From NCBI GenBank assembly GCA_964611205.1, contig CAZSZB010000003.1:23764-87763 (forward strand): a stretch of DNA of 64,000 bases, read 5' to 3'. The translations under genes were made by a program, and so were the position numbers. Shown in pieces: positions 30,158 through 51,238 of this stretch. Positions within the stretch are counted from its first letter, which is position 1. Each line of letters begins with the position of its first letter. A model generated the notes under the pieces. It was not told the origin of the DNA. It saw only the letters and a list, made by a program, of their open reading frames with translations, and ran no database searches. The stretch is from an uncultured Candidatus Saccharibacteria bacterium (GTDB taxonomy: Bacteria; Patescibacteriota; Minisyncoccia; Phycocordibacterales; UBA918).

Positions 30158-30215
30158 TCACGAGTTACTAAGTATATTTGTTGTCTATGACTACAGATCT
30201 ACTAAGTACTCTCGA
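30158..30215. repeat. tRNA-associated MITE-like element copy
   Basis: Bounded by cacgagttactaagta and ctaagtactctcga, the same termini as 63166-63221. Confidence 0.6.
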
Positions 30216-30447
30216 ACTCTACGAGTTCTGTACACCTTGTCACTACTCTTTGCTTCACTCAAAGATAGTAGGCAAGGTTTTACGAAGTGACATTGAGTCA
30301 CTTCTCACCCGCCTCGACCGTTTTCATTTCTAGGAAAAAAGAAATGAAAACAAGTCTGCGGCCAGCACCAAGGTACGCAAGCAAAGCAGTTTGCTTGCTA
30401 TAGGAAAGATAGTCAGTTCTTAAAAACTGACTATCTTTCTTATATCT

Positions 30448-33191: not shown

Positions 33192-33259
33192 TTTTTGGCT
33201 CTAGACTTTGTGAAAGAAATTAGATAGTTTAAGTTGAACAAAAAAGAAGGAGTTCTTCA

Positions 33260-33532
33260 ATGGAAGCAGAAAAAGTCCAAGAGGTCATCCAGCTTTATCG
33301 TCGCGAGTTTGAGGCGACGGGTGTTGGTAAGACCAAATATCCTCACGGAAAGTCGTTGGATCAGTCCAGTCACAGCCTCGAGCATTGCCACGCTATGCTC
33401 GATGATATGGATGAATTCCTGAAGGAAGGTAGGACTGACAAAGTCTTCCGCTGGCTCGGTTTCATACAGGGAGTTCTTTGGGCCCAAGGCCTTTACTCAC
33501 TGACCGAATTGACCGGTCACAATCGCCCTTAG
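33260..33532 (+). CDS. hypothetical protein encoded in GC-rich (about 52%) DNA
   Basis: 90-aa ORF starting where GC content jumps relative to the ABC transporter gene. A hairpin terminator lies at about 33568-33600. Confidence 0.35.
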   Translation: MEAEKVQEVIQLYRREFEATGVGKTKYPHGKSLDQSSHSLEHCHAMLDDMDEFLKEGRTDKVFRWLGFIQGVLWAQGLYSLTELTGHNRP

Positions 33533-33777
33533 TTGGGAGGAAAAGACAGAAAGACAGTAAGATTTAAGGTCGTCCGATTTATCGGACGGCCTTTCTGGTT
33601 GGAGTTAATGGAAAGGGATTGCTTTGCTTTTTCTAATTCTTTACAGGAACTGTGTAGGTTAACTAATATTTTTCCTTCGTCAAAATATTAGTTAACCTCT
33701 CGAGAAAATGTGTAAACATTTTCTCTCCCCAACCCTCCCATGCGCGCACTGAACCATCTGAAAACAGATAGTCTTCC

Positions 33778-33807
33778 AAAAAAAACCACCAGTATGCACA
33801 CTGGTGG
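33778..33807 (-). terminator. rho-independent terminator on minus strand (ccaccagtgtgcatactggtgg + T8)
   Basis: Perfect 8-bp GC-rich stem followed by eight T on the minus strand. Confidence 0.55.
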
Positions 33808-33932
33808 CATTTTCGGTTCGTGTGTTGGCTTGCGGACAAGCCTTCAGGGACGTGTCCGCTCTGCGAGCGGAAAGGAACGGTGCTGGTGCATCAGCGTGTT
33901 GGACATCCATGTCCTGAACCGACGGGCTGGGC

Positions 33933-34052
33933 TCAGACGATGGTGTCGATGGCGGCGCAGTGGCTCGGGTAGCCAGCGGCTGGGTTGTTCGCGCCATTGG
34001 TCATCAGCTCGACGGGACCGGCACGAACGGTGGTGAGTGCGAAGCGTTTCAT
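33933..34052 (-). CDS. candidate 39-aa micro-ORF in about 60% GC DNA with consensus Shine-Dalgarno
   Basis: AAGGAG sits 6 nt upstream of the ATG. Hand translation gives MKRFALTTVRAGPVELMTNGANNPAAGYPSHCAAIDTIV, followed about 120 nt downstream by the strong terminator. Confidence 0.25.
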   Translation of the reverse strand: MKRFALTTVRAGPVELMTNGANNPAAGYPSHCAAIDTIV

Positions 34053-34177
34053 CGCAGTCTCCTTGTCCGAGTGTGAAGGAAGTCACACGCTCATTGGCCA
34101 GATAATACTGACCTCTATAGCTAAAAGTAGTAGATTTTGTTTTTTTTCAAGTGAGAAGTGAAGAGAAAAGTGAAAAT

Positions 34178-34195
34178 TGGCGGAGAGGGATTCTC
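34178..34195. repeat. partial copy of tRNA-Ser 3' end (ttggcggagag..ggattc), candidate attL
   Basis: Matches 46295-46305 exactly (11 nt) plus a further 6 nt after a 4-nt gap. It has the same orientation as the tRNA gene. Confidence 0.35.
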
Positions 34196-34465
34196 TCGTT
34201 ACACGAGCAGTATACCTTTTGCATCAGATTACTTCGCAAGCTCATAATCTGACGCAAAAGCTTTCGAATCCCCACAGAAGTGACACTGAGTCACTTCTTC
34301 TCTCTCCACCAACAAAATAGCACCCCAAAAAGGGTGCTATTTTGTACTCGCGGGCTACGTGGGTTAAGTACCCACACGTTCAAGCCTTGTAAGGGTATTC
34401 TAGCGCATTTTGGGTATGCGAATCTAGGTACGTGGGTCGGGGTCTAAGAGTAGACAAAGTAGACA

Positions 34466-34912
34466 CTAATAGCGACTTCGGCGGTATCGCTTCTTTCGCC
34501 TGCCTCCAGGCTCTTTAAGGTAAACCCAGAAGCCAGTGAGATTAAGGAGTATCCCAGAGCAAAGGAAGATAAGTAAGTGAAGTGCAAGTGGCCACTTCAA
34601 GCAATAGACAAAGTTGCCGAAGATCGTGGTGAAGATGAGGAATGTCAGGGTCTGCAATCCAAGGTATGTCCCGCTTCCGACAAAGCGGTTGAATGTCGGC
34701 GAGAAGCCGTTGTCGGAATTGTAATGGGCGGTGCCGTTGCGGGTGTAAATCTCCCAAGCTACCCACCCGATCATGGCAAGAATGATCCAGACGAAATGCC
34801 ACGGCCACAGATACTTGATCGCAGTCCAGAGAAAATCGGAAAGCGAAGAAACCGCCATATCCGATACGGTTGAGCAGATTTCTCCAAATGAAAATATTGT
34901 TTGTGGATCCAT
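34466..34912 (-). CDS. hypothetical polytopic membrane protein with Arg/Lys-rich C-terminus
   Basis: 148-aa ORF, hydrophobic, in the island. Confidence 0.35.
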   Translation of the reverse strand: MDPQTIFSFGEICSTVSDMAVSSLSDFLWTAIKYLWPWHFVWIILAMIGWVAWEIYTRNGTAHYNSDNGFSPTFNRFVGSGTYLGLQTLTFLIFTTIFGNFVYCLKWPLALHLLIFLCSGILLNLTGFWVYLKEPGGRRKKRYRRSRY

Positions 34913-35308
34913 GTCTTTGACACCTCGGTTCTGGGAAATGCCCCGACCTCGGCGTTTCTTATCTTCTCGCTAATCGTCAATTTACACTATTGACACTGTG
35001 GATAAATACTTGTTTGATTTTTAATACGGAAGTGCATATAATTCACTCAGTTCTTCACAGATGAAACTACCTTCTCCCTCGGGAGAGGCAGTCCGATCGC
35101 ATAGGTCATCGACCAAAAAAAATATGCGTGAGGGTTGTCGAATGGAGTGCGTATTGAACGAATCGTTGTCGGGTCCATTGTGGCAAAAAGACAGCTGTTC
35201 GAGATCGCAGTCGAAGGCACACCAAGCATCACGCTTGCTGTTTCTTTGAGTGCGATTTTTTGTTTGTAGAAAATCAAAACTCTCCGTGCAGAACTAATTA
35301 TCAATTAT

Positions 35309-36652
35309 TTGAAATTAGTTATGACCAATCACAACCACACATTAGAAATCCAATACGTCGCAGTCGGTGACCTCAAGGAGAACGAATACAACCCGAAGAA
35401 GTTCTCAGCGGAGGCTTTGGACGGCATCAGAGAAAGCGTTACCCGTTTCGGGTTCGCAGATCCATTGGTAGTTAACAGCAACGAAGAGCGGAAAAACATT
35501 CTCATCGGAGGACATGCACGCCTCAAGATCGCCAAGGAGCTCGGCTTCGAGACCGTACCAGTCGTCTTCGTTAATCTGAGTGAAGACAAGGAAAAGGAAC
35601 TCAACCTCCGTCTCCACAGGAACCAAGGAGCGTTCGACTTGGAACTGCTCGCAAAGTTCGACGAGACGCTTCTTGCGGACATCGGATTCAACTCGGAGGA
35701 TCTCGATTCGATCTTCAACATGGACCCGACACCCGAGCACTTCGACCTCAAGAAGGAACTTGAGAAGTTGAATATCAAGGACGTGAAGGTAAAGCACGGA
35801 GACCGATACGAGATCGACGGCTCGATCCTCATGTGCGGAGACAGCACCATCGAGGAAGACATGCTCAAGCTCATGCAGGGAGCAAAAGCCGACATGGTGA
35901 TGACCGATCCTCCTTACATTCTCGACTACCTCAAGGGTAAGACGAAGAACAAGGACGGGATCACGGAAGGCTTCGGTGCGAAGAAGAACCGCGTCTATCT
36001 CGGCACCACTTCCTTGCCCGACAACTTCACCGACCTCTGGATGAACGGCGTGTCCAAGGTTCAGAAGGAGGACTTCTCGATCGTCATCTTCGAGCATCCG
36101 AAGAATCTCCGCACCATCTGGAACGCACTTGAGAAGCACTGGAAGTATCGCAACACCATCACATGGCACGTGCCAAACCGCATGCAGGGATTCGCTGGGA
36201 AGTACAAGCTTTTCAACAAGCAGGACATCGCACTTGTAGGAAGCACCGACCGAGTGATCGTTAATCTCGAGCCAGAGGATGAGCTGTTCCAGAACGAGTA
36301 CGAGAATGCCATTTATGCCACGAGCGGAAGACCGCATTGGGAAAGCTACGGCAAAGGAAAGAAGAACTGCCCGACGGACTTCATCGAGCACATCGCCGCA
36401 GACAAGAAGTCCTCTGGTCAGGACATCATATTTGGCACGAAGCCGATAGAGCTTCTCATCCCGTACATCAAGGTACTCACGAAGCGTGACGACTTGGTGC
36501 TCGAGCCGTTCGGAGGATCGGGATCAACGCTCATCGCATCGCTGAAGATCGGACGCAAGTGCCGCATCATGGAGAAGCAGCCGATCTATGCGGAGGTCAT
36601 TATCAAACGCTGGGAGAAAGCGACCGGCAAGAAGGCGGTGAAGATAGACTAG
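35309..36652 (+). CDS. ParB-like nuclease domain fused to N4/N6 DNA methyltransferase (beta-class)
   Basis: N-terminal ParB/Srx motif (ILIGGHARLKIAKELG). Motif IV VMTDPPY comes before motif I LEPFGGSGST. Confidence 0.8.
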   Translation: MKLVMTNHNHTLEIQYVAVGDLKENEYNPKKFSAEALDGIRESVTRFGFADPLVVNSNEERKNILIGGHARLKIAKELGFETVPVVFVNLSEDKEKELNLRLHRNQGAFDLELLAKFDETLLADIGFNSEDLDSIFNMDPTPEHFDLKKELEKLNIKDVKVKHGDRYEIDGSILMCGDSTIEEDMLKLMQGAKADMVMTDPPYILDYLKGKTKNKDGITEGFGAKKNRVYLGTTSLPDNFTDLWMNGVSKVQKEDFSIVIFEHPKNLRTIWNALEKHWKYRNTITWHVPNRMQGFAGKYKLFNKQDIALVGSTDRVIVNLEPEDELFQNEYENAIYATSGRPHWESYGKGKKNCPTDFIEHIAADKKSSGQDIIFGTKPIELLIPYIKVLTKRDDLVLEPFGGSGSTLIASLKIGRKCRIMEKQPIYAEVIIKRWEKATGKKAVKID

Positions 36653-36653
36653 T

Positions 36654-37229
36654 ATGGCAAAGCAGAAAGAAGCGGTCGCTACCGCACAGCTGAAGCACAA
36701 GCTCGTACAGCACCTACGGGACATCCCGATCCCGACATATGCGTGCCAGCGGGTCGGCGTTCCCAAAGCCACCTACTACAAGTGGCGGAAGACAGACCAG
36801 ATATTCCGTGAAGCGAGCGACGAGGCGATCATCACGGGAAAGCTCACACTTAATGATGTTGCTAAGTCCCAGCTCGTGAAGCTCATCAAGGAGGGAGACT
36901 ATCGCTCGATCAACTTCTGGCTGAAGCACAACGACGAGGACTTCGGATCGAAGCTCAAGCTTGAGATCGAGGACAGGACGAGAAAGTACGACCCCGAAGA
37001 ACTCAAACTCATGGCGACAGCGATGCATAATGCAGGATTGGTCGGCGTTACACTCGCTCACCAAAAGATGGCGAAGGTGTTTCAGGGATTGCAGGAAAAG
37101 GAAGAAGAGCGAGCCAACGAGAAGAACGAATACGACGAGGATGAAGAACCTGTCGTTCAGGAAAAACAGAAGCGAAAAGGCGGAGTGAAGATTGCAGAGT
37201 TTATGAAGAAGAGGAAGTCTGAGGAATAA
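36654..37229 (+). CDS. HTH DNA-binding protein, phage terminase small subunit-like
   Basis: N-terminal HTH (ACQRVGVPKATYYKWRK), and charged helices downstream. It is translationally coupled to the ParB-MTase. Confidence 0.4.
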   Translation: MAKQKEAVATAQLKHKLVQHLRDIPIPTYACQRVGVPKATYYKWRKTDQIFREASDEAIITGKLTLNDVAKSQLVKLIKEGDYRSINFWLKHNDEDFGSKLKLEIEDRTRKYDPEELKLMATAMHNAGLVGVTLAHQKMAKVFQGLQEKEEERANEKNEYDEDEEPVVQEKQKRKGGVKIAEFMKKRKSEE

Positions 37230-37659
37230 GTCGCCTCAGCACCTCTCCCGTGAGGATGCGGTGCTTCTTGAAGGCGTTGCACCGCTTGCATGCAAGCGTC
37301 AGGTTTCTCGGGTGGTTGGAGCCGAAGCTTTGTGGTTCGACTTTCACACCCGACACGCCTTTCATCTTACGAAGCTCCTTGTTCAGGACATTCGATGACA
37401 GCGGAATGATGTGGTCGGGTTCGAAGATTCCATCGTTGGTGCACTCAGGGTGAATGCTTAACTGGCATTCGCCTTTGTGCTTTTCGATGAGTTCATGCAA
37501 TACCTTCTTGCTGGTCTTGTCGAATTGCCACCGCTTGATTGCAGGATGCTGAAAATCAAAGAGATCGGAATATTCTTTGTTGAAATACTCTAGGTCTCCG
37601 TCTGCAAGCAGGTGTACGAAAAAATCCTGATCCTCAGGATTTTCAAACTGCATTCGCAA
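37201..37659 (-). CDS. HNH endonuclease
   Basis: A CxxC ... H-N-H core (EPDHIIPLS..NHPRNLTLACKRCNAFKKHR). Confidence 0.8.
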   Translation of the reverse strand: MRMQFENPEDQDFFVHLLADGDLEYFNKEYSDLFDFQHPAIKRWQFDKTSKKVLHELIEKHKGECQLSIHPECTNDGIFEPDHIIPLSSNVLNKELRKMKGVSGVKVEPQSFGSNHPRNLTLACKRCNAFKKHRILTGEVLRRLIPQTSSSS

Positions 37660-38002
37660 TGAAGATGAAAAGGACTATGGCGGTAAAGACAACTAAACCG
37701 ATGAGTACCTTTTCGCTTCGAGTATAGATTCGAGCAGGTTCTTTTTCAGCCAGAGCCTGCTCGAGTGTTTTGCCTTGGTCAGCCAAGAGCTTCTGTCCGA
37801 TTGGAGAATCCAACGGAATCAGATTGGTCGCACCACAGGCGGAGCACTTCTTGTACCTTGATGACGATCGCCACACCGAATATATGAGACCCGGAATGAT
37901 GAAGAAGCACCAGAGGATTATTTCTATTAAAAGGTTTCCCTTAACGGCAGTTTTGGAACTGCCAATATGCCCACAAGCGGAGCATATGAGTTTCTTAGAC
38001 AT
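37643..38002 (-). CDS. zinc-ribbon (2x CxxC) membrane protein
   Basis: CSACGH..CSACG pairs flank a TM helix, with a second TM at the C-terminus. It overlaps the HNH start by 17 nt. Confidence 0.4.
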   Translation of the reverse strand: MSKKLICSACGHIGSSKTAVKGNLLIEIILWCFFIIPGLIYSVWRSSSRYKKCSACGATNLIPLDSPIGQKLLADQGKTLEQALAEKEPARIYTRSEKVLIGLVVFTAIVLFIFIANAV

Positions 38003-38227
38003 GTTTTTTGGACGGTTTTCATGACGCTAATAATTCTGGTAGGTAGCAAAAATCTCCTAACCAGGGCTGATATATCCCGTGAGATATACCCATACCCCTT
38101 TCGGGATATGACCGTCCAAAGTGGCCTCTGATTAGGAGGTTTTTACTTTGGACGGAATTTGCGACCATATCCTAGAAAACCAAGGGTTCTTTAGGGGTTA
38201 GGTCGACTGTATTCAGTTGTATGTACA

Positions 38228-38250
38228 TGATACCAAAATTGATGGTATCA
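38228..38250. promoter_or_regulatory. palindrome tgatacca-N7-tggtatca upstream of the putative restriction endonuclease gene
   Basis: 8-bp perfect arms, about 80 bp upstream of the 38330 start. Confidence 0.3.
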
Positions 38251-38329
38251 GTCAGTACCTTAGCTTAGTTATTGGGTCTTGCGAAGGGCTTCATAAAGGC
38301 TTGATAAATTGCTAGAATGAGGCGTAACC

Positions 38330-39397
38330 ATGGCAGTATCCGCTCAAAAAGTAAGCAAGTATGTCGATTCCATTTCCAAGAGCGGTCTTAGCATCTATGA
38401 CCCTATTGAAGTCGGAGATCCAAATCTTTGGATACCTTCAGGAGAACTGGAGGTTATTTTGAATGAGGCTTTAAAAGGTCTCTCCCTTACAGGTCTGCCC
38501 CTAAGAACACGATCAAAAGTTGTGAAGCAGAAAGTATGCTCTGCTTTGGGCTATCCTGTGCCAAATAGTTTTGAGAAAACACAGCCACGTTTCCCAGGAC
38601 AGTGCTTCGATACTTATATTCAGAAATCAAACAACTTGCAGATTTGGAACGAAGAACTTTCATCAACCCGACGATACGTAACGATCAAAGTAACCGACGA
38701 AGACGTGGTTGAAGTTGTACGTGTCGTAACTGGAGACACTCTTGCTGTACTTGATACAACAGGCACCCTCACTCAGAAATACCAAGCTCGACTTACAGTC
38801 GGTGATAATGTGTCAGAACTTGTATCTGCGGAGGATACTGACCGAATCGTTGCGATAATCGAATCTGCAAACGGTGATCAAAAGCTTGGTGATCCCACAG
38901 ATCATGTATCAGCTGAAAACATTCTTCCTATCGAAGATGTATTTGAAAAACTTAAGACAATAATCGGAAAGTCTTTTGCTGACGCTGGTTCTGATCAAGA
39001 AAGGAATCGAGGTGGACTACTCCACAAACTAGTGTGTCATGCATTGGGTTATGAAATACATCGAGACAACGGACAGTTTCCTGATGTACCGAATCAATTA
39101 CTTGAAGTAAAGCTTCAAACTTCTCCAACTATTGATCTTGGCTTGGTTACACCCGACAGTAAGGACGCATTGGATACGCCTAAAATCAACGGGAAGCAGA
39201 TACGTCACTGCGACGTTCGCTATGCAATCTTTTATGCCAACATCGAGAACGGACAAATTAATGTCACCAACCTTTTTCTATCAACAGGAAAAGATTTCTT
39301 TAGTCGTTTCCCTCGCTTTGAAGGAAAGGTACTTAATAAGAAAATTCAGATACCCCTTCCGTCAGATTTTTTCACCTATAAGCCGAAGGCTGAATAG
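38330..39397 (+). CDS. putative type II restriction endonuclease (PD-(D/E)xK-like)
   Basis: Convergent and overlapping by 22 bp with the N6-adenine MTase gene. It has a candidate catalytic HRDNGQFPDVPNQLLEVKLQT segment (D..EVK). Confidence 0.45.
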   Translation: MAVSAQKVSKYVDSISKSGLSIYDPIEVGDPNLWIPSGELEVILNEALKGLSLTGLPLRTRSKVVKQKVCSALGYPVPNSFEKTQPRFPGQCFDTYIQKSNNLQIWNEELSSTRRYVTIKVTDEDVVEVVRVVTGDTLAVLDTTGTLTQKYQARLTVGDNVSELVSAEDTDRIVAIIESANGDQKLGDPTDHVSAENILPIEDVFEKLKTIIGKSFADAGSDQERNRGGLLHKLVCHALGYEIHRDNGQFPDVPNQLLEVKLQTSPTIDLGLVTPDSKDALDTPKINGKQIRHCDVRYAIFYANIENGQINVTNLFLSTGKDFFSRFPRFEGKVLNKKIQIPLPSDFFTYKPKAE

Positions 39398-41070
39398 ACA
39401 AGTTTGTTTAGCTTCTCCTCCTGAGAATCAAATTCAGCATCTACAGGCAACTCGTAGATTGATTTAGTTAAGTTGATGATCTCTTTTGCTATCTTTGATT
39501 TTGGATCAGGCAATGGAAACTTCTCAACGTATTGAGTAATAAAGCGTCTTCGTCCCGAGTAGAGTTTATTGTTGAAACTGTGGTCGTAGAACTCCTCGAC
39601 AAACTTTGAGTTTGCAATTGCCAAAGCGAGCCACAGCAATTCGGAATTATCTTCTTCTGAAGTTAACCAGTAGCAGTCTCCATTCACCACACCGCCTGTT
39701 TGATCCATCCAAAAGATTGGTTGTTCAGAAATATCTCTGAAGACTAACTTGGGCTTCTCCCAAGTCTTTGGATTATGAGGAACCCAGATCTCGTACCAGT
39801 TACGTCCTGAATCAATCACGTAACTTCTCGATGAGAGCTGATCTTTGTGTTCTTCAAGATACCTTTTTACGTTGGGATACTGATCAAGATCAATGGGCTT
39901 CTTTTTGTTGCCGATTTCCTCATGTGTGTAAACAACATGCTTCTTTGCTGAATCTGTTTTGTATCTTCTTGCGACGTGATGAGTAATCAGTGGCTTTAGA
40001 GTTTCAGGTAGGTTTCCATTAAATTTAGAAATGTCGGATACGATAAAAACATTGTCAGCAGTCGTTTTGATACCAACTTTTACCTTGCCAATATCCCCAA
40101 ATAAAAGTTGAGTCTTTTCTTTAACTTTCTTCAACCACAGGTCTGCTTTGTCATGAGCAAGCCTCCATGTGTCGCCGATCTTATTGCCAATATCAAGCTT
40201 GCCGTGCAGTACTTTAAAATGTTCCGATTCCTCTCCTTCGAGTGATTGAAAGACTTGTTGTGGATCAATCTTTGTATTCTTTCCCGAAAGATATATTGAT
40301 GTGAATCTAGGGTCAGCATCCTTTGATGTCTCTTTTTGCAAAAGCAGAACAGCTGGAAGCACTGCCGCTTCAAACAAGCGTGTATCTCCTAAATCCCATA
40401 CATGTAGAACACTAAAATCATTTAGGAGATTCTTTCGAACAGCTTCGCCTGATTTAGTGGTAAGAAAGCGATTGGAAACAATGATACCTACTACACCTTC
40501 TGGCTTAAGAAGTTTCTCAATTCCTTTTAGGAAAGCGTGATACAGATCAACTCGACCTGAGAGATTAAAATCTTCCGCAAGCTTTTGAGCCTTTTCAGCA
40601 CCCATGACTTGAGTTCTGACATAAGGCGGATTCGCAATAACAAGATCAAAGAGTGGAACATCTGTTTTTGAAAACAAAGAACCTCCATAAGTTTCAGAGA
40701 CCCATTCTAAGAAATCCTGAGTTTTAATATCAGCCTTAACTTCAGGGAAATCCTTCTTGATTAGATCCAGAGAAGCATCAACTGCATCTTGATTAATATC
40801 GAAACCGAATACTTCGATTTTATTGAATCCGCGCGAGTAGGCTATCTGTATAAGATTACGCAGAAGCTCCCCGTCACCAACAGCAGGATCAATTACTTTT
40901 AGTGTTTTGGTTTTCTTTAAATTCTTTTTCTCAACTTGATCAAAGATTTGAGATGCCACAAAGCCAGCCAAAGAAGTTGGGGTGTAATGAGCCCCTGTAT
41001 TCTTTCTTAATCCAGCATCGAGTTGTGCATCTAAAGTTGGCATTTGTAAACCTATTTTAACATTTTTCAA
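39376..41070 (-). CDS. N6-adenine DNA methyltransferase, gamma-class (Eco57I/TaqI-like) with C-terminal target-recognition half
   Basis: A TGAHYTP segment, motif I VIDPAVGDGELL and motif IV VIANPPY. 564 aa. Confidence 0.85.
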   Translation of the reverse strand: MKNVKIGLQMPTLDAQLDAGLRKNTGAHYTPTSLAGFVASQIFDQVEKKNLKKTKTLKVIDPAVGDGELLRNLIQIAYSRGFNKIEVFGFDINQDAVDASLDLIKKDFPEVKADIKTQDFLEWVSETYGGSLFSKTDVPLFDLVIANPPYVRTQVMGAEKAQKLAEDFNLSGRVDLYHAFLKGIEKLLKPEGVVGIIVSNRFLTTKSGEAVRKNLLNDFSVLHVWDLGDTRLFEAAVLPAVLLLQKETSKDADPRFTSIYLSGKNTKIDPQQVFQSLEGEESEHFKVLHGKLDIGNKIGDTWRLAHDKADLWLKKVKEKTQLLFGDIGKVKVGIKTTADNVFIVSDISKFNGNLPETLKPLITHHVARRYKTDSAKKHVVYTHEEIGNKKKPIDLDQYPNVKRYLEEHKDQLSSRSYVIDSGRNWYEIWVPHNPKTWEKPKLVFRDISEQPIFWMDQTGGVVNGDCYWLTSEEDNSELLWLALAIANSKFVEEFYDHSFNNKLYSGRRRFITQYVEKFPLPDPKSKIAKEIINLTKSIYELPVDAEFDSQEEKLNKLVYSAFGL

Positions 41071-41111
41071 GATCGCTTGATACCTTAGCTTAGACCTGAA
41101 AAATTGTGTAA

Positions 41112-41507
41112 TTGGTTACCAGATTGACCCTTTGCAGACCTCTGGACTTATTTGCAGTTCAGCGTCATTCCTTGGGTGTGGATGAAGATATCGAGGCAAT
41201 TATTGATGCGAGTAAGCATTTCAAATACCACGAGGAGCGTGGGATGACCCTCTTTAATCGCGTCTCTCATCTACCCGAATCAAAGCGACACATGAAGATG
41301 GCAATTAAGGAACGCATACTCTTCTTGGCAGGTGCTTATATATCTCTTGCGTCATTCATTGATGATGACCTCGTGGATTTCTTAGAGAACGCTGACAATG
41401 AATCAGATAAAGAAAAAATAAAGAGAATTTATAGCGATGTAATCAAACAGATGGATACTCTACGTAAGGAGATGGAAGAATTCAAAATCATAGACTTACC
41501 AACCTAA
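41112..41507 (+). CDS. hypothetical protein upstream of the recombinase (true start probably internal)
   Basis: ORF with a charged helical C-terminus. Confidence 0.3.
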   Translation: MVTRLTLCRPLDLFAVQRHSLGVDEDIEAIIDASKHFKYHEERGMTLFNRVSHLPESKRHMKMAIKERILFLAGAYISLASFIDDDLVDFLENADNESDKEKIKRIYSDVIKQMDTLRKEMEEFKIIDLPT

Positions 41508-41541
41508 GGGTACTTAGGACGCTCTGGACTCTTCAAAGGGA

Positions 41542-42882
41542 TTGCGTCATTCATTGGGTTGTATGAATAACGCAATATCAATGCCGTACGGGACAACGGT
41601 ACAAGAGCAAGTCCCTGTAAAGGTGAAGTACTGCCTTTATGCGAGAAAGTCGACAGAATCGGAGGAGCGACAAGTGCTGTCCATAGATAGCCAGATCAAG
41701 GAGATGCTCCAGCTCGCGGATCGAGAATGTTTAGAGATTGTGGAGATGAAGCGAGAGTCACACTCTGCAAAAGAGACAGGTCAGCGACCAGTCTTCAATG
41801 AAATAATCGAGGAGATACGAGAAGGAAAATACAACGGTATCCTGACATGGGCACCAGACCGTATTTCAAGAAACGCAGGTGACCTTGGAAGGATTGTAGA
41901 CCTGATGGATTCGGGCAAGCTTGAGGAAATACGAACTTTTGGTCAGAAGTTCGGCAACAATCCAAACGAGAAGTTTCTCCTGATGATTCTGGGGTCACAA
42001 GCAAAGCTTGAGAACGACAATCGAGGAATCAACGTGAAGCGAGGTCTGCGAACGAGAGCGGAGATGGGGCTATGGTCAGGCATGCCTCCTCTCGGGTACG
42101 TGACGCAGGGACTAATGGAAAAGAAATGTCAGGTAGCGGTAGATCCGCTACGAGCACCAACAGTGAAGAAGATGTTTGAGAAAGTTGCATACGAACAATG
42201 GTCTGGGCGAAAGGTATACAACTGGCTGAGGTTTGAGCTGAACTTCTACACCAGAGGAAACAAACCACTCACTCTCGGAGGTGTGTATCGCATATTAGAA
42301 AACCCTTTCTACTATGGAGTGTTCGAGAGACCAAAGAAGAGCGGAAACTGGTATCAAGGAAAGCACACGCCACTCATCACGCAGGAACTGTTCGAGAAAG
42401 CAAAGGCACAGCTTAAGCGTGACCAGATAGTGCGAGAGACGAAGGAGTTCGCATTCACTAAGCTCTTCACCTGCGGGTACTGCGGAAGCGGGATATCCGC
42501 CGAAGAGAAATGGAAACAGCTCAAGGATGGCGGCGTGAACAGATACATCTACTACTCCTGTGCCAGATCAAGAGACCGCAACTGCAAGAACATGTACATA
42601 CGAGAAGAAGATTTGATACTCGAACTACTGAAAATACTCGACAAAGTGAACATCAACGAGCTTGGCATGCGAAAGAAACTGGAGGATGAGATTGCGAGGT
42701 TCAATATATTCCAAAGGTCGGTACTCGGCGCCAAAGAAAAGATAAAGACGGATGCAGAGACAGATATCAGGAACTATGCGAAGTACATCCTAAAAGAAGG
42801 GTCTACTACTGAAAAACGAGAGCTATTGGCTAACCTGAGATCACGAATTGAATACAAAGATAAGAACCTAAGGCTCGTCTAG
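41542..42882 (+). CDS. large serine recombinase (resolvase catalytic domain + recombinase domain + zinc ribbon)
   Basis: YARKSTESEERQ catalytic Ser motif, a recombinase domain, and CGYCGS..YYSC zinc-ribbon cysteines. Confidence 0.85.
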   Translation: MRHSLGCMNNAISMPYGTTVQEQVPVKVKYCLYARKSTESEERQVLSIDSQIKEMLQLADRECLEIVEMKRESHSAKETGQRPVFNEIIEEIREGKYNGILTWAPDRISRNAGDLGRIVDLMDSGKLEEIRTFGQKFGNNPNEKFLLMILGSQAKLENDNRGINVKRGLRTRAEMGLWSGMPPLGYVTQGLMEKKCQVAVDPLRAPTVKKMFEKVAYEQWSGRKVYNWLRFELNFYTRGNKPLTLGGVYRILENPFYYGVFERPKKSGNWYQGKHTPLITQELFEKAKAQLKRDQIVRETKEFAFTKLFTCGYCGSGISAEEKWKQLKDGGVNRYIYYSCARSRDRNCKNMYIREEDLILELLKILDKVNINELGMRKKLEDEIARFNIFQRSVLGAKEKIKTDAETDIRNYAKYILKEGSTTEKRELLANLRSRIEYKDKNLRLV

Positions 42883-42962
42883 ACAGAATAGATGGGTTGT
42901 TGCAAAAGTGTTAAAATAGAGGCGTAACATGAAATCCAAATTTCACCTTACGAGAACATTGC

Positions 42963-45900
42963 ATGAGCCCAAATACCGCTCCACAACCAAACACGCTCAT
43001 TCTCCCAATCTTAGAATTGGGGCCTATTAGGCATGATCTCGGACAGATAAGGCATGTTTTGGATCTTGGCGGGAGCAAAGAGATAGTATCAACAGAAGAT
43101 TTCAATACTTCGCCTAGAGTTGTAGAAAAGCTACACGTACTCTCTGACGGACAAAGAGTATTGGTAACAAAGAAAAAGAAACTCCAGCTACCTGTCGATG
43201 TGGACGGAGTGCTTCATCGTAACGAAGAAGGAGAACTAAAGTGGGTTGCTCATAGAAAACTGGAAGCGATAGAACAGGATATTGCTCGAGACGGGATAGA
43301 AAGTGTCGCATCTGAAATAGCTGAAAGCTGGTCTGGGAAATTTAACTTTCGTGCAGAAGAGCGAGATGCTTCAGGAAACATCACTAAGGCAGGACTGAGA
43401 CCTCCACAAATCGGTGGACTTCATGCGATTGGTGCTCACTGGAGTCTCTACCAGCAACCTGCGACGGTTGTAATGCCCACTGGTACAGGAAAGACAGAAA
43501 CGATGTTGGCAACTCTCGTGGCATATTCACCAGGTAGCTTGCTTGTAGTGGTTCCCTCAAAAGTACTTCGGGATCAAACCGCAAGAAAATTTCTAACGTT
43601 AGGATTGCTTCGTTCTCTCGGTAATATTTCTCCAGAAACAAAAAATCCAATTGTTGGAGTAATCAAAAAGAGACCTCAGTCAGAACAAGATCTGGATATT
43701 TTTGATAAATGCAATGTCGTTATTGCAACCATGAGTGCCATGGGTGGCGAAGCATCCGATGACATATCCCTTCCTGTTGCCGACCATGCCAAAACACTGA
43801 TCGTCGACGAAGCACATCACATTGGAGCAAATGGATGGAGTGCTTTTCGAGAAAAATTTAAGGAAAACAAGGTTTTACAATTTACAGCAACCCCCTATCG
43901 AAGAGACGGAAAGCTTGTCGATGGAAAGGTTATTTATGAGTATCCTCTACACTCAGCCCAGAAAGACGGATATTTCAAAAATATCAACTTCGAGCCCGTA
44001 TATGAGATTGATCAAGAAGATGCGGATGAAGCAATAGCCACAAAGGCAGTAGAAGTGCTCAGAAGCGATATTGAGTCTGGAATGGACCATCTCATGATGG
44101 CAAGATGTGTGAGCATTGGTCGGGCAAGGACAATACATGCTATTTACAGCAGGATCGCTCCTGACCTGAACCCTGTTCTAATACATTCAGAGGCTGACGA
44201 AGCCGATGCTTCTATTGAGCTCATAAAATCTCGTGGAAGTCGTATTGCAGTTTGCGTAAATATGCTCGGAGAAGGTTTTGATTTGCCTCAACTTAAAATT
44301 GCAGCTGTCCACGATGCTCATAAAAGCCTTGCTATCCTTTTGCAATTTACGGGTAGATTCACTCGAAGTTCAGGAGAAGCAATTGGTGATGCGACTGTCG
44401 TGGCAAATATCGCAGATCAGGATGTCTCCTCATCGCTTGAACGTCTTTACAGTGAGGATGCGGATTGGAATCAATTGTTAAGTGAATTTAGCTCCGAAGC
44501 AGCAAAAGCCCATTCAGAGCTTATTGCCTTTTTGAATTCATCCGAAAGGCTTGATGACCCAGAAGATGAAGAGAAGATCGAAATATCCCACCATCTATTT
44601 CGCCCTACCTTCAGCACACTAATGTACGAAGCAGATTCTTTCACTCCTAAAAAATTCATCGAAGGAATTCCCAAAGGAACGACTGTGCACAATGTCTGGA
44701 TTCACGAAGAATCCAAAACCCTCTATTTTGTAACAAGACTAGAACCATCCATTCGTTGGACAAGATCACGCAAACTAAAGGATAGGACATGGGATTTGCA
44801 CGTTTTTCATTATGACGAAGCGCGCCACATGTTGTTCGTGTCCTCGAGTGACAAGTCCTCAGCGCATGAAAAAATTGCCAAGGCCATTGGTGCCACACGA
44901 CTCATTTCTGGTGACGTTATTTTCCGAGCACTAGGACGAATCAATAGACTTATCTTTCAGAACGTGGGAGTAACCAAGCATGGCCGTCGAAACCTGAGGT
45001 ATGCAATGTATACAGGTTCTGATGTTGCTACAGCGTTGAGTGTGTCTGAACGAGCTGGTTCAGTTAAATCAAACCTAAGTGGTACTGGTTGGGAAAATGG
45101 TGAACCTGTCACAATCGGATGCTCCTACAAAGGACGTGTGTGGGCTAGAGATCCTGGATCAATACCTGAACTCGTAAAATGGTGTGAAGCTGTTGGCGAT
45201 AAAATTAAAGATGAAGGAATAGACACGGCAGATATTATTGCCAACGTTCTTATCCCCGAAGAAGTAACAGCATTGCCAGATAAACAGGTACTCAGCATTG
45301 AGTGGCCTCTGGAAATTATCAGACAGTCGGAAGAAAGAGTGGTTATCAAGAAAGGAGCTGTTGAGAGATCAATTTCAATGTTTGATCTTCAATTCGTTAA
45401 AACTGATCTGGTAACCAGTCAGGTTGAATTTAATCTTGTCACAGATCCTGAGGAGGTTTGGGCAAAATTAGTTCTGACAGTGGGTGGCGATGACGGATTC
45501 AAAGTCACAAAAAGCACAAGAGAAGCTGTAACAATTCGTGTTGGGAATTTGGAACTTCCAATCGAGGAGTATTTTTCAAATTACCCTCCGATGATTCGCT
45601 TCATAGATATTTCTGAGCTTGACGGCAACTTACTCATTAAGCCGCAAAACACTCAAGACCTTGTGTTTCCTGAAGAAAGTTTTGAGGTCTGGGACTGGGA
45701 AGGAGTCGACATGCAAAAGGAGTCTATTTGGAAAGGTGGTAATGAACGTCAGGACTCAATCCAATGGAAAGCGGCTCAGCAGTTTATTGCTGGAAACTTC
45801 GATGTGGTCTTTGATGATGACAGTGCGGGAGAAGCTGCTGATCTTGTCTGTTTTAAGGAAGAAGATGATCATATACGGTTAGCTTTGGTGCATTGTAAAT

Positions 45901-46256
45901 TCACAAAAGGTACAACCGCAGGTGAGCGAGTAAGTGACGTTGTGGAAGTTTCATCTCAAGCGGTTCGATCAGCAAAATGGAAATGGAAATTTAAAGATTT
46001 GTGCCGACACGTTCTTGAAAGAGAGAAGAGGCTTTCTGGTGGTCGCACAACTAGATTCCTCAAAGGAATTGGATCAGATATGAATAGGTTCGTGAAGTTG
46101 AGCAGATTCAAGGAAATTAGACCAGAGATCATTATCGTTCAACCTGGCTTATCAAAGGCTAATCACACGGCAGATCAGACAGCCGTATTAGCAGCAGCTC
46201 ATAGCTATCTCAAGGAGACAGTCGGAGTTGATCTTGATGTTATTTGTAGCGAATAA
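42963..46256 (+). CDS. 1097-aa SF2 (DEAH / ResIII-type) helicase with roughly 600-aa C-terminal extension carrying a possible degenerate nuclease-like motif
   Basis: Q-like motif LRPPQ, Walker A MPTGTGKTET, DEAH box LIVDEAHH and motif VI QFTGRFTR. The C-terminal segment FDVVFDDD..ADLVCFK..ALVHCKFT is PD-(D/E)xK-like but not canonical. Confidence 0.8.
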   Translation: MSPNTAPQPNTLILPILELGPIRHDLGQIRHVLDLGGSKEIVSTEDFNTSPRVVEKLHVLSDGQRVLVTKKKKLQLPVDVDGVLHRNEEGELKWVAHRKLEAIEQDIARDGIESVASEIAESWSGKFNFRAEERDASGNITKAGLRPPQIGGLHAIGAHWSLYQQPATVVMPTGTGKTETMLATLVAYSPGSLLVVVPSKVLRDQTARKFLTLGLLRSLGNISPETKNPIVGVIKKRPQSEQDLDIFDKCNVVIATMSAMGGEASDDISLPVADHAKTLIVDEAHHIGANGWSAFREKFKENKVLQFTATPYRRDGKLVDGKVIYEYPLHSAQKDGYFKNINFEPVYEIDQEDADEAIATKAVEVLRSDIESGMDHLMMARCVSIGRARTIHAIYSRIAPDLNPVLIHSEADEADASIELIKSRGSRIAVCVNMLGEGFDLPQLKIAAVHDAHKSLAILLQFTGRFTRSSGEAIGDATVVANIADQDVSSSLERLYSEDADWNQLLSEFSSEAAKAHSELIAFLNSSERLDDPEDEEKIEISHHLFRPTFSTLMYEADSFTPKKFIEGIPKGTTVHNVWIHEESKTLYFVTRLEPSIRWTRSRKLKDRTWDLHVFHYDEARHMLFVSSSDKSSAHEKIAKAIGATRLISGDVIFRALGRINRLIFQNVGVTKHGRRNLRYAMYTGSDVATALSVSERAGSVKSNLSGTGWENGEPVTIGCSYKGRVWARDPGSIPELVKWCEAVGDKIKDEGIDTADIIANVLIPEEVTALPDKQVLSIEWPLEIIRQSEERVVIKKGAVERSISMFDLQFVKTDLVTSQVEFNLVTDPEEVWAKLVLTVGGDDGFKVTKSTREAVTIRVGNLELPIEEYFSNYPPMIRFIDISELDGNLLIKPQNTQDLVFPEESFEVWDWEGVDMQKESIWKGGNERQDSIQWKAAQQFIAGNFDVVFDDDSAGEAADLVCFKEEDDHIRLALVHCKFTKGTTAGERVSDVVEVSSQAVRSAKWKWKFKDLCRHVLEREKRLSGGRTTRFLKGIGSDMNRFVKLSRFKEIRPEIIIVQPGLSKANHTADQTAVLAAAHSYLKETVGVDLDVICSE

Positions 46257-46295
46257 CCCGAGCCCCATTCAAGGGTACTCGGGTCACTCCGATAC

Positions 46296-46385
46296 TTAGT
46301 TCTCTTGGCGGAGAGAGAGGGATTCGAACCCTCGGTACGCGTAAACGTACAACGGTTTTCAAGACCGCCGCCTTCAACCACTCAG
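46296..46385 (-). tRNA. tRNA-Ser (anticodon TGA), long variable arm, CCA encoded
   Basis: Hand-folded: GGAGAGA acceptor, GCTGAGTGGTTGAAGGC D-arm, anticodon loop CUUGAAA, long extra arm, and a GGTTCGAATCC T-loop. Confidence 0.9.
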
Positions 46386-46541
46386 CCATCTCTCCAGATA
46401 TTAAATTGTTGCGGTAAACGATTGTTATCAGTTCAACCAGCTTACCACCGCATGCTTAATCCTTGATAAGGATTGTGACCAGGATATTACCAGAAAAAAA
46501 GCTTTTTTCCAACTATATTTTCATCGTGTTATGATTATCGA

Positions 46542-49651: not shown

Positions 49652-50173
49652 ATGAAAAACCAACGAACAAAAATAATATTCATAATCGCTTTGGTTTATT
49701 TATCTCTATCCCTGTTTGTTTTATGGTGGATGTTTTCTAGTGTTGAAAAAACTGGTCAGGAGATGAGTGCCCAAGCTATCATTTTGGCTGACAATATGGC
49801 TCAAGAGAGAGAGGTGGGGGATTTAAGTAGATTGGTCGACGCTAGTTTTGTGGTCCGGAGTCAATTGGAGGAGTTCGTTTTAGCTGAAGCAGAAACAGTT
49901 AATTTCCTAGCTGATATAGAGCTAATAGGGAATGAGCAAGGTGTGAAGTTAGAGACCTCATCCCTTGAGGTTATAGATAGTGGAGGTGAATTTCCTATCT
50001 TGTTAGTAGATTTTTCGATTATTGGATACGAAAAAGATGCTTTAAAAATGATTAAGATTCTTGAAAATATTCCTTACCATAGTGAGTTGAGAAGTATAAC
50101 CTTTGACCGTAATCCGGATAATGAATCGTTGGTTTTAATTTCTACTACCTTAGCTGTTAGTATGAATAGATAA
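49652..50173 (+). CDS. PilO-like bitopic membrane protein
   Basis: N-terminal TM plus a coiled and beta-rich domain, translationally coupled. Confidence 0.45.
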   Translation: MKNQRTKIIFIIALVYLSLSLFVLWWMFSSVEKTGQEMSAQAIILADNMAQEREVGDLSRLVDASFVVRSQLEEFVLAEAETVNFLADIELIGNEQGVKLETSSLEVIDSGGEFPILLVDFSIIGYEKDALKMIKILENIPYHSELRSITFDRNPDNESLVLISTTLAVSMNR

Positions 50174-50180
50174 AAGTATC

Positions 50181-50582
50181 ATGGATAAATCCGATATTAT
50201 AAAAATTGCAAAACATGTATTTAAGAAAGGTGGTGGTTCATCAGATCATTCCTTTTTCAACCCAAGCCGAGACTGGCTAATTGGAATTTTTATTTTTATT
50301 ATCATCCTTTTAGTAGGTAGTTATATCAGTGGCTTAAACTATGCTCGATATCATAATGTTGAAGTTACCGAGCTCGGAACAAAAACAAATCTTCCTAAAT
50401 ACAATGAAGTGAGGGTAAACGAAGCAATTTTAAAATATAAAAGTATCGATGCTAAATTCAAAGGATTGATAAGTGAGACACCAAATGGAACTCGGAGGTT
50501 AGAATTAATTGATAAAGACAACGTTGAACCCGAGCCTGACATTAGAAGAGACACTCCACCAGAAAGTTACTCGGCTGAGTAG
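50181..50582 (+). CDS. small membrane-anchored protein (possible PilP-like)
   Basis: One TM, and operon position. Confidence 0.3.
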   Translation: MDKSDIIKIAKHVFKKGGGSSDHSFFNPSRDWLIGIFIFIIILLVGSYISGLNYARYHNVEVTELGTKTNLPKYNEVRVNEAILKYKSIDAKFKGLISETPNGTRRLELIDKDNVEPEPDIRRDTPPESYSAE

Positions 50583-50672
50583 TTAATTTTTATATTTAGT
50601 TAAGTTTAATAATTAAAACAAATACATTACACTTTGTTTCTATAAAATATAAAATTTAGTTATAATGCTCGA

Positions 50673-51236: not shown

Positions 51237-51238
51237 GT

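What the first reader, a model, noticed from the sequence alone, without database searches (positions are those of the whole stretch)
34178..46385. About 12 kb GC-rich island inserted at the 3' end of tRNA-Ser: large serine recombinase plus defence/phage cargo
GC content rises from about 37% to about 50% across this block. The block ends 40 bp from the 3' end of tRNA-Ser(TGA). It encodes a large serine recombinase (41542..42882) with catalytic domain, recombinase domain and zinc ribbon. A partial copy of the tRNA 3' end (ttggcggagag..ggattc) lies at 34178, and an inverted partial copy (tctctctccaccaa) at 34286-34299. The cargo is a type II RM pair, a ParB-MTase fusion, an HNH endonuclease, a TerS-like HTH protein and a 1097-aa helicase. 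Islands delivered by serine integrases into tRNA genes are well known. This gene combination, in what appears to be a reduced symbiont-type genome, is not one I recognise as a described element family.
Basis: partly seen in the sequence, partly recalled or inferred. Interest (0 to 1): 0.75.

Follow-up and report, generated by a model that had tools for sequence, protein, structure and literature searches.

The report
Serine-recombinase island beside tRNA-Ser gene
About 12 kb of foreign DNA, carrying its own large serine recombinase, a restriction-modification pair and a helicase-nuclease, sits in the last four bases of a serine tRNA gene of a Patescibacteria bacterium. It belongs to a widespread family I could not find described, and the "tRNA repeat" that drew attention is part of a separate, unexplained tRNA-mimicking structure that follows many tRNA genes in this lineage.

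Summary
It is an 11,958-bp element bounded by a 4-bp core, GCGG, at 34350-34353 and 46308-46311. On the tRNA strand the core reads CCGC: the last two acceptor-stem bases, the discriminator base and the next C of tRNA-Ser(UGA).

Three lines of evidence fix the ends. At least eleven related genomes have the empty site. A sister island in another genome shows homology that starts exactly at GCGG. A natural attP junction on a viral contig matches the attP I reconstructed.

TLS normally lies 6-80 nt after tRNA genes, including at empty sites. Here the island has pushed it 12 kb away from its tRNA.

The element belongs to a family found in Patescibacteria metagenomes. The shared backbone is LOOT RNA, ParB-methyltransferase, a TerS-like protein, sometimes TerL, and a large serine recombinase. 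The cargo is variable defence genes, and the target is the 3' end of tRNA genes. This copy has no TerL and no structural genes, so it is a satellite-like or decayed element rather than a prophage. Serine integrases that target tRNA genes are uncommon, not "well known".

The parts
34176..34312 (-). TLS-Ser, a tRNA-trailing structured element. It is host-side sequence, not part of the island. Its 3' end copies the tRNA-Ser 3' end and its 5' strand is the inverted copy.
   Evidence: Covariance model R1 scores 140 bits, E = 2e-37. Fold is -64.6 kcal/mol, z = -8.1. The family of 37 copies has 92.7% of cells paired against 62.3% in shuffles. In relatives it lies 6-67 nt after tRNA-Ser.
34312..34345 (-). 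Terminator-like hairpin that in relatives directly follows tRNA-Ser. It is the host-side (B') flank of attL.
   Evidence: 14-bp perfect inverted repeat (I25). It aligns with the spacer hairpins of the empty sites L155 and L180.
34350..34353 (.). attL core, GCGG.
   Evidence: Homology with the left end of sister island L195 starts exactly here, while the upstream flanks are unrelated. The same 4 bases occur at attR.
34354..34442 (+). P arm, the conserved left end of the element.
   Evidence: Aligns with L195 453-538. Also aligns with the P side of the natural attP junction in L102 (GGGTACTTAACCC..GT.GC-CCGC).
34466..34912 (-). 148-aa predicted membrane protein, function unknown.
   Evidence: No family hit. 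A homologue with 52% identity lies in related element L115.
35309..36652 (+). ParB_N + N6/N4 DNA methyltransferase fusion. The gene callers start it at 35321.
   Evidence: Pfam ParB_N 8.7e-11 and N6_N4_Mtase 3.4e-18. phrog_498 5e-74. Homologues with 55-73% identity occur in many related elements.
36654..37229 (+). HTH protein, a putative small terminase subunit homologue.
   Evidence: Weak TerS PHROG hits at about 1e-4. In relatives its homologue sits directly before TerL.
37201..37659 (-). HNH endonuclease.
   Evidence: Pfam HNH 22.5 bits against a cutoff of 21.4. PHROG HNH hits.
37643..38002 (-). Zinc-ribbon / small membrane protein.
   Evidence: Pmp3 3.1e-5 and a weak Zn_ribbon_3 hit.
38069..38204 (-). 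LOOT RNA (Rfam RF03000).
   Evidence: 73.4 bits against a gathering score of 46.4. Also present in 7 of 14 related IMG/VR loci and in sister islands L191-L195.
38330..39397 (+). Type II restriction endonuclease.
   Evidence: PADLOC REase_II PDLC03565, 1.9e-151.
39376..41070 (-). N6-adenine DNA methyltransferase of the Eco57I/TaqI_C type, convergent with the REase.
   Evidence: Pfam Eco57I 5.9e-21, N6_Mtase 4.4e-16, TaqI_C 8.4e-11. PADLOC MTase_II 2.1e-193.
41112..41507 (+). Unknown ORF upstream of the recombinase. The position would suit a directionality factor, but the ORF is not conserved in sister islands.
   Evidence: No family hits. No homologue in L191-L196.
41563..42882 (+). Large serine recombinase, 439 aa. 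The YARKS motif places the catalytic serine at residue 30.
   Evidence: Pfam Resolvase 1.2e-18, Recombinase 5.6e-13, Zn_ribbon_recom 1.8e-8. phrog_95 integrase 7.1e-59. 34 relatives with 45-82% identity in IMG/VR.
42963..46256 (+). 1097-aa SF2 helicase with a C-terminal PD-(D/E)xK-fold nuclease domain. It is a conserved neighbour of the recombinase in sister islands.
46257..46307 (+). P' arm, the right end of the element. It contains CCGATA (46289-46294), the reverse complement of TATCGG, 13 nt from the core.
   Evidence: CCG[CG]-N13-TATCGG next to a tRNA-like 3' end at 11 distinct junctions. Identical in L191/L192.
46308..46311 (.). attR core, GCGG. On the tRNA strand this is CCGC: acceptor C71-C72, discriminator G73, C74.
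46306..46395 (-). tRNA-Ser(UGA), intact. This is the target gene.
   Evidence: ARAGORN. Rfam tRNA 60.3 bits.

Best explanation
The block 34350-46311 is an 11,958-bp integrative element inserted by its own large serine recombinase (LSR). The crossover lies in a 4-bp core, CCGC, at the extreme 3' end of the tRNA-Ser(UGA) gene. The element sits between the tRNA and the terminator hairpin plus TLS structure that normally follow it.

Inferred from what is established for LSRs, not shown here:
- Recombinase dimers bind attP (P'-GCGG-P) on a circular form and attB (tRNA 3' end-GCGG-hairpin).
- They cut with a 2-nt stagger inside the core, rotate and religate, giving attL at 34350 and attR at 46308.
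- Excision would need a directionality factor, which I could not identify.

The tRNA stays intact, because only its last bases are exchanged and the element supplies ...CA.

The element belongs to a family common in Patescibacteria metagenomes. The backbone is LOOT RNA, a ParB-methyltransferase, a TerS-like protein, TerL in some members, and the LSR. Defence cargo is swapped between members. Different LSR subclades sit next to different tRNA genes.

This copy, like its closest sisters L191/L192, has no TerL, portal, capsid or tail genes. It is therefore not an autonomous phage. It is either a helper-dependent, satellite-like defence island or a decayed derivative. Its cargo is a type II restriction-modification pair, an orphan ParB-methyltransferase, an HNH nuclease and a helicase-nuclease.
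For: 1. Empty sites. ruvX relatives keep the tRNA-Ser(tga)-ruvX arrangement. In 11 of them the covariance model finds TLS 6-67 nt after the tRNA. Across 35 tRNA-TLS pairs the gap is at most a few hundred nt (34 of 35 are 6-260 nt, most 6-80), except here, where it is 11,994 nt.
2. Boundaries. The left end of sister island L195, in an unrelated flank, aligns with window 34350-34442 starting exactly at GCGG. GCGG is also at attR in both islands.
3. attP. The attP I reconstructed aligns across both arms with a natural P-CCGC-P' junction in L102. L098 has another such junction with no tRNA.
4. Conserved geometry. CCG[CG]-N13-TATCGG..GACC follows a tRNA-like 3' end at 11 distinct junctions.
5. Recombinase. 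The LSR is intact. Its 34 IMG/VR relatives (45-82% identity) often lie 0.1-4 kb from a tRNA on the opposite strand: Ser, Asp, Glu, Asn, Gln or Trp.
6. Other contexts. The same LSR-helicase module sits next to tRNA-Ser(gct) and tRNA-Ser(act) in other genomes, with different cargo.
7. Composition is foreign over the whole block.
8. Assembly. Independent Logan contigs from the same sample span attL (L010, 30681-34442) and the island interior (L013, 34416-46304).
9. No TerL. tblastn with relatives' TerL finds nothing in the island. Relatives do have TerL between the HTH protein and the LSR.
Against: - I have no direct evidence of excision or activity. No attB or attP junction from this species was recovered. 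Contigs from other strains simply break inside the tRNA at 46346-46359.
- The arms of the reconstructed attP show little dyad symmetry around GCGG, so the exact crossover dinucleotide is inferred.
- No directionality factor was identified.
- Whether the family members are phages, satellites or neither is unresolved. PHROGs and Pfam found terminase but no capsid or portal in about 10 kb around the LSR of relatives. Structural proteins of Patescibacteria phages may be too divergent for these profiles.
- The 1 kb left of TLS is also strain-variable, so the locus has a more complex history than one insertion.
Confidence: 0.85

Rival explanations
1. The island spans 34178-46385, and its ends are marked by a displaced copy of the tRNA 3' end (TTGGCGGAGAG..GGATTC) created or used as the att core, as in classical tRNA-inserting islands.
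For: The 13/14 direct match between 34177-34190 and 46304-46317 is real, and GGATTC follows after a 4-nt gap.
Against: Every TLS copy carries an 11-22 nt exact copy of its own tRNA's 3' end plus an inverted copy, including at sites with no island: tRNA-Val, Lys and Arg in this window, and at least 11 empty tRNA-Ser sites in relatives. Sister-island homology and the natural attP place the boundary at 34350, 170 nt further right. No tyrosine integrase is encoded.
Confidence: 0.04
2. An intact, inducible temperate phage (prophage).
For: IMG/VR classes the relatives as viral. The family has TerS and TerL, and one 55.9-kb member (L098) has an endolysin-like gene and a free attP.
Against: The element is only 11,958 bp. 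All ten ORFs of 95 aa or more were scanned, and none is a TerL, portal, capsid, tail or lysis gene.
Confidence: 0.03
3. An active helper-dependent satellite. It excises by its LSR and is packaged by a related helper phage through its TerS-like protein, carrying defence genes as P4-like and PICI satellites do. The alternative within the best explanation is an inert remnant.
For: The size is 12-13 kb in the window and in L195. The same TerL-less layout recurs in L191/L192, with 94% LSR and 97% helicase identity but different cargo. Both att arms and the LSR are intact. Cargo is exchanged between members, for example the L195 helicase is 93% identical but its LSR only 66%.
Against: TerS similarity is weak, about 1e-4 and below the Pfam cutoff. 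No helper, capsid-remodelling gene or replication initiator was recognised. There is no expression or excision data.
Confidence: 0.35
4. The block is ancestral and was deleted in relatives, or it is an assembly or binning chimera.
For: The flanks are from a metagenome-assembled genome. Logan contigs break at the tRNA.
Against: Composition is foreign. The same module lies beside other tRNA-Ser genes in unrelated flanks. Independent contigs from the same sample cross attL (L010). Sister contigs L191/L192 cross attR into a tRNA. Eleven or more independent precise deletions would be required.
Confidence: 0.03

Closest known systems
Integrative elements and temperate phages that use large serine recombinases (phiC31, Bxb1, A118, SPbeta; SCCmec Ccr recombinases)
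   Same: Three-domain LSR (Resolvase, Recombinase, zinc ribbon). A very short shared core rather than a long identity block. The recombinase gene lies near one end of the element.
   Different: The target is the last bases of a tRNA gene. Identity to any LSR in 50,697 GenBank phage records is at most 27%. The best NCBIfam hit, CcrB, scores 119 bits against a cutoff of 900. The backbone of LOOT RNA, ParB-methyltransferase and TerS is specific to this family.
Islands and satellites that insert into tRNA genes with tyrosine integrases (Islander-type islands, P4-like satellites)
   Same: Insertion at the tRNA 3' end leaves the tRNA intact. Size is about 12 kb. Defence genes occupy variable slots near the att site.
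   Different: A different recombinase family. The core is only 4 bp, and no displaced tRNA fragment is generated. The apparent fragment belongs to TLS, which was there before the insertion.
Phage satellites that carry packaging genes (PICI and related)
   Same: Small, integrase-bearing, with a TerS-like gene, no structural genes and defence cargo.
   Different: No recognisable satellite hallmark genes. Helper dependence is untested. The host is a Patescibacteria bacterium.
Genomic islands with restriction-modification systems, and about 44-kb prophages, reported in Paceibacteria MAGs (PMC12455944)
   Same: The same host group and the same kind of cargo.
   Different: That paper never mentions integrases or tRNA genes (0 occurrences each). 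The att sites and the family defined here are not in it.
Helicase-nuclease defence and restriction proteins (Hachiman HamAB, type ISP LlaBIII, Hna)
   Same: An SF2 helicase combined with a PD-(D/E)xK nuclease fold.
   Different: No sequence-level membership. PADLOC gives only a partial PbeA hit at 3.3e-14. About 300 residues between helicase and nuclease, and the first 140 residues, match nothing.

Membership tests
Integrative element using a large serine recombinase | Recombinase with an N-terminal resolvase catalytic domain, a recombinase domain and a zinc ribbon | tested here: met
   Pfam PF00239 1.2e-18, PF07508 5.6e-13, PF13408 1.8e-8, all above their curated cutoffs.
Integrative element using a large serine recombinase | Catalytic serine motif present | tested here: met
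   Y-A-R-K-S-T at residues 26-31 of the 439-aa product, read from the translation. The full Resolvase profile is matched at positions 3-144 of 145.
Integrative element using a large serine recombinase | attL and attR share only a few bases around the crossover | tested here: met
   4-bp GCGG at 34350 and 46308, with unrelated flanks.
Integrative element using a large serine recombinase | Unoccupied attB in related genomes, and attP on a free or tandem element | tested here: met
   Empty tRNA-Ser-hairpin-TLS sites in 11 or more relatives. Natural P-CCGC-P' junctions in L102 and L098.
Integrative element using a large serine recombinase | Recombination of attP with attB by the enzyme; a directionality factor for excision | not testable with these tools
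   Needs an in vitro or in vivo assay. No directionality factor is recognisable, and the ORF at 41112-41507 is not conserved.
tRNA-inserting island of the tyrosine-integrase type | Tyrosine integrase encoded in the island | tested here: not met
   None of the ten ORFs of 95 aa or more matches Phage_integrase.
tRNA-inserting island of the tyrosine-integrase type | A displaced tRNA 3' fragment at the far end, produced by the integration | tested here: not met
   The fragment at 34177-34194 is the 3' end of TLS, which is present at empty sites.
Tailed temperate phage (prophage) | Large terminase, portal, capsid and tail genes | tested here: not met
   No hits in Pfam, PHROGs or NCBIfam. tblastn with relatives' TerL finds nothing in the island.
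Phage satellite | Small integrated element that depends on a helper phage for packaging | not testable with these tools
   Size and gene content are compatible. Helper dependence needs an experiment.
LOOT RNA (Rfam RF03000) | Score at or above the curated gathering threshold over the full model | tested here: met
   73.4 bits against 46.4, model positions 1-121 of 121.
Type II restriction-modification system | Adjacent endonuclease and methyltransferase genes matching type II profiles | tested here: met
   REase_II 1.9e-151 and MTase_II 2.1e-193, convergent genes overlapping by 22 nt. Activity and recognition site were not tested.
Hachiman / type ISP / Hna helicase-nuclease defence proteins | Sequence membership in the family profiles | tested here: not met
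   PADLOC returned only a partial PbeA match and weak helicase-core matches. The similarity is at fold level only.

The most novel reading that the evidence does not exclude
Two linked possibilities.

(a) TLS may be a previously undescribed class of structured RNA, or a miniature integrative element, that trails tRNA genes in Paceibacteria. Each copy carries a direct copy of its own tRNA's 3' end, from the T-loop to the discriminator base. It also carries an inverted copy split by a hairpin, so the direct copy sits in a tRNA-minihelix-like stem. Because it reproduces the recombinase's tRNA half-site, it can act as a second or decoy integration target. In L181 a P' arm is fused to a TLS rather than to a tRNA.

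(b) The recombinase clade may be the first well-documented lineage of serine integrases that specialises in the 3' ends of tRNA genes and has switched between at least six tRNA types.
Probability: 0.3. Interest if true: 0.75.

Novelty: new variant of a known kind. Interest (0 to 1): 0.6.

Why it matters
- Serine integrases are the preferred tools for inserting large DNA, and their natural targets are almost always protein-coding genes. A clade that recombines at a 4-bp core in the conserved 3' end of tRNA genes, with conserved arm geometry and natural target switching, bears on an open question raised in PMC7192596: why serine integrases avoid tRNA genes. It also offers candidate att and enzyme pairs for hosts that are hard to engineer.
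- Biologically, defence genes in ultra-small Patescibacteria genomes (type I, II and III restriction-modification, reverse transcriptase, RelA/SpoT-like, GmrSD, helicase-nuclease) are shown to travel on a defined mobile platform.
- LOOT RNA, an orphan Rfam motif, gets a genomic context.
- TLS is a strongly covarying structure with no Rfam match, and it can mislead att-site calling at tRNA genes.

Tried and rejected
- **Logan contig ends as junction evidence.** L010 ends at 34442, L013 spans 34416-46304, and other strains break at 46346-46359. These ends do not coincide with the junctions fixed later and are not explained by a simple attB/attP branch. I use them only as independent support for contiguity.
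- **A 3-bp CTC core (34347-34349 / 46302-46304).** I proposed this from spacer comparison. GCGG replaced it once the L195 left end and the L102 attP were found.
- **Dyad symmetry of attP.** Only 6 of 40 and 12 of 40 matches at equal offsets. Half-sites could not be defined.
- **ABC-transporter synteny in GTDB genomes.** The transporter is not conserved next to tRNA-Ser, so this was uninformative for the site.
- **Exact-protein look-ups for the LSR and the ParB-methyltransferase.** These failed because I used the longest-ORF TTG starts.
- **Viral-contig scans for more P arms.** They returned only the L102 contig.
- **Rfam at permissive threshold on 33190-35320.** No family matches TLS.
- **Literature searches.** I looked for LOOT context, serine recombinases or prophages in Patescibacteria, and tRNA-like RNAs in the Candidate Phyla Radiation. 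Nothing described this family or TLS.
Full report
**1. What is in the sequence**

ARAGORN and Rfam place tRNA-Ser(tga) at 46306-46395 on the minus strand, so its 3' end faces lower coordinates. To its left lie ten ORFs:

- 34466-34912 (-): 148-aa membrane protein.
- 35309-36652 (+): ParB_N + N6/N4 methyltransferase.
- 36654-37229 (+): HTH protein with weak small-terminase similarity.
- 37201-37659 (-): HNH nuclease.
- 37643-38002 (-): zinc-ribbon membrane protein.
- 38330-39397 (+): type II endonuclease.
- 39376-41070 (-): Eco57I/TaqI_C-type methyltransferase.
- 41112-41507 (+): unknown ORF.
- 41563-42882 (+): large serine recombinase (LSR) with all three domains.
- 42963-46256 (+): 1097-aa ResIII/DEAD helicase.

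Rfam also finds a LOOT RNA (RF03000) at 38069-38204 on the minus strand, 73.4 bits against a gathering score of 46.4.

Flanking genes are ordinary host genes: an ABC transporter ending at 33191, and ruvX starting at 46542. Record titles of the closest transporter homologues identify the host as Patescibacteria, Paceibacteria/Parcubacteria type.

**2. Composition**

Host 1-kb windows average 38.6 +/- 2.9% GC. The island averages 45.0%. Only 34350-38002 is near 50% (49.8%). The restriction-modification pair is host-like at 40.7%.

Tetranucleotide distance from the host profile is raised over the whole block, z = 3.4-12.6, and falls to baseline right of about 46.5 kb and left of about 32 kb.

**3. 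The "tRNA repeats" are a separate structure**

The direct copy (34177-34190, 13 of 14 identical to 46304-46317) and the inverted copy (34299-34312) exist. They pair with each other. The minus strand of 34170-34312 folds into a four-way structure at -64.6 kcal/mol, z = -8.1.

A homologue in L103 lies between two tRNA-Ser genes, and its ends copy the acceptor stem of that neighbouring tRNA-Ser(gct) rather than of tRNA-Ser(tga). Similar elements follow tRNA-Val, tRNA-Lys and tRNA-Arg(gcg) in this window.

A covariance model built from three copies found 39 copies at E up to about 1e-5 in the window and related contigs, of which 37 were aligned. Of the 39, 35 have a same-strand tRNA just upstream.

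- The 3' end of the element matches the cognate tRNA's 3' end exactly for typically 11-22 nt. Non-cognate controls average about 5 nt.
- Its 5' strand carries an 8-15-nt inverted copy.
- Covariation is strong. 92.7% of cells are paired, against 62.3% in shuffles and 40-48% when partners are slid. 35 of 37 pairs show compensatory changes. The alignment was fitted to the model, which favours pairing.
- No Rfam family matches it.

I call it TLS, for tRNA-trailing structure. Its function is unknown.

**4. Empty sites**

A scan of metagenome contigs with ruvX returned 63 relatives at 38-78% identity (most 52-73%). Most keep tRNA-Ser(tga) immediately upstream of ruvX.

In 11 of them the model finds TLS 6-67 nt beyond the tRNA, separated only by a terminator-like hairpin. 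By eye about ten more show the same start. The window's TLS-Ser is the only copy 11,994 nt from its tRNA.

Joining the window's tRNA end to the sequence right of the hairpin gives a spacer that aligns with the empty sites of L155 and L180.

**5. Exact ends**

The helicase has close homologues. Looking up their contigs gave sister islands:

| Locus | Source | LSR identity | Helicase identity | Neighbouring tRNA |
|---|---|---|---|---|
| L191/L192 | Logan | 94% | 97% | contig ends inside a tRNA-Ser 3' half |
| L193/L194 | NCBI Parcubacteria MAG | 69% | 82% | tRNA-Ser(gct) |
| L195/L196 | JGI / Logan | 66% | 93% | tRNA-Ser(act) |

L195 has both flanks. Its left end (449-538) is homologous to window 34350-34442. 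The homology begins exactly at GCGG and the upstream sequences are unrelated. GCGG also sits at the tRNA junction of both islands.

So attL core = 34350-34353, attR core = 46308-46311, and the island is 11,958 bp (12,939 bp in L195).

The reconstructed attP aligns over both arms with a natural P-CCGC-P' junction in viral contig L102. L098, a 55.9-kb viral contig with no tRNA, carries another.

On the tRNA side, the motif CCG[CG]-N13-TATCGG..GACC follows a tRNA-like 3' end at 11 distinct junctions. About eight unrelated matches occurred, against about nine expected by chance in 2.33 Mb.

**6. The family**

The LSR has 34 relatives at 45-82% identity in IMG/VR, but at most 27% identity to anything in 50,697 GenBank phage records.

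Relatives share ParB-methyltransferase, then the HTH/TerS-like protein, then TerL (441-522 aa), then variable genes, then the LSR, then variable genes, then a tRNA on the opposite strand.

- The closest relatives use tRNA-Ser(tga). Others use Asp, Glu, Ser(gct), Asn, Gln or Trp.
- Variable slots hold type I and type III restriction-modification systems, reverse transcriptases, a RelA/SpoT-like protein, GmrSD, an AAA_13 ATPase and DinG-like helicases.
- LOOT RNA occurs in 7 of 14 relatives scanned and in all sister islands.
- The window and L191/L192 have no TerL. No capsid, portal or tail gene was detected anywhere, though divergent ones could be missed.
- Other LSR lineages occupy the same tRNA-Ser in L128 (35% identity) and L153 (55%).

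**7. The helicase**

**8. The left segment**

Contigs from other strains, 99.6% identical across the transporter, diverge from the window right after 33209. They reach a TLS-like 5' end after 115 nt. So 33210-34175 (48% GC, a 90-aa ORF and a 39-aa peptide gene) is a separate variable segment on the far side of TLS.

**9. Comparison with what is known, and verdict**

The mechanism is the standard LSR pathway and is inferred, not shown. What is unusual is the target. Mageeney et al. 2020 predicted tRNA/tmRNA use for only 14 of 297 serine integrases and called it previously unreported. A survey of Patescibacteria islands and prophages never mentions integrases or tRNA genes.

The island is a new variant of a known kind. 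TLS, which caused the misreading, is the least explained and possibly the most novel item.

Noticed in passing
window 34176-34312(-), 55189-55326(-), 26455-26536(+), 26636-26739(+), 30202-30318(-); weaker copy near 55452-55600(-): TLS, a roughly 135-nt structured element that follows tRNA-Ser, Val, Lys (two copies) and Arg(gcg). Each copy carries a direct and an inverted copy of its own tRNA's 3' end. Covariation is strong across 37 copies, and no Rfam family matches. Function unknown.
   Followed up: partly
window 38069-38204(-); L094, L097, L099, L106, L109, L112, L119, L191-L195: LOOT RNA (RF03000) recurs in this family of recombinase elements, in variable positions. This gives the orphan motif a mobile-element context.
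   Followed up: partly
L181 161-330: A P' arm of the element family (CCGC-N13-TATCGGATGACCC) is fused to the 3' end of a TLS rather than to a tRNA. TLS may therefore serve as an alternative or decoy integration site.
   Followed up: no
window 33210-34175: A GC-rich (48%) segment that is absent from strains 99.6% identical in the flanking gene. It holds a 90-aa ORF with a ribosome-binding site and terminator, a 39-aa peptide gene on the minus strand (34052-33936), and a perfect 17-bp palindrome at 33656-33698.
   Followed up: partly
L103 15923-16010; L195 13388-13475: The tRNA at the junction of two related elements is called tRNA-Ser with an ACU anticodon, which is unusual for bacteria. A normal tRNA-Ser(gct) lies next to it in both cases.
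   Followed up: no
L128, L131, L132; L134, L135, L150, L153: The same tRNA-Ser(tga) site in relatives is followed by other conserved arms (AGAAAGAAACTTC..., AGTCGTGCTAGCACGA...). In L128 and L153 other serine recombinases are present (35% and 55% identity). The site is a hot spot for several recombinase lineages.
   Followed up: partly
window 42963-46256; P0001-P0120: The helicase-nuclease family is very widespread and conserved (57-97% identity over the full length, Parcubacteria to Bacteroidota). It has no name beyond DEAD/DEAH helicase. About 440 residues match no Pfam family.
   Followed up: partly
window 46346-46359; L001-L009: Contigs from nine independent Logan assemblies of this species all end inside tRNA-Ser. 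This indicates a graph branch there in every sample. The cause is undetermined: a tRNA shared between species, or alternative elements.
   Followed up: no
window 12001-14000 and 50001-52000: Two stretches with unusually low GC (29-32%) compared with the 38.6% background.
   Followed up: no
L102/L103 (IMGVR_UViG_3300000970_000154); L100: Some viral contigs carry two recombinase genes. In L102/L103 they flank a P-CCGC-P' junction, which suggests tandem elements. In L100 two copies are adjacent and convergent.
   Followed up: no
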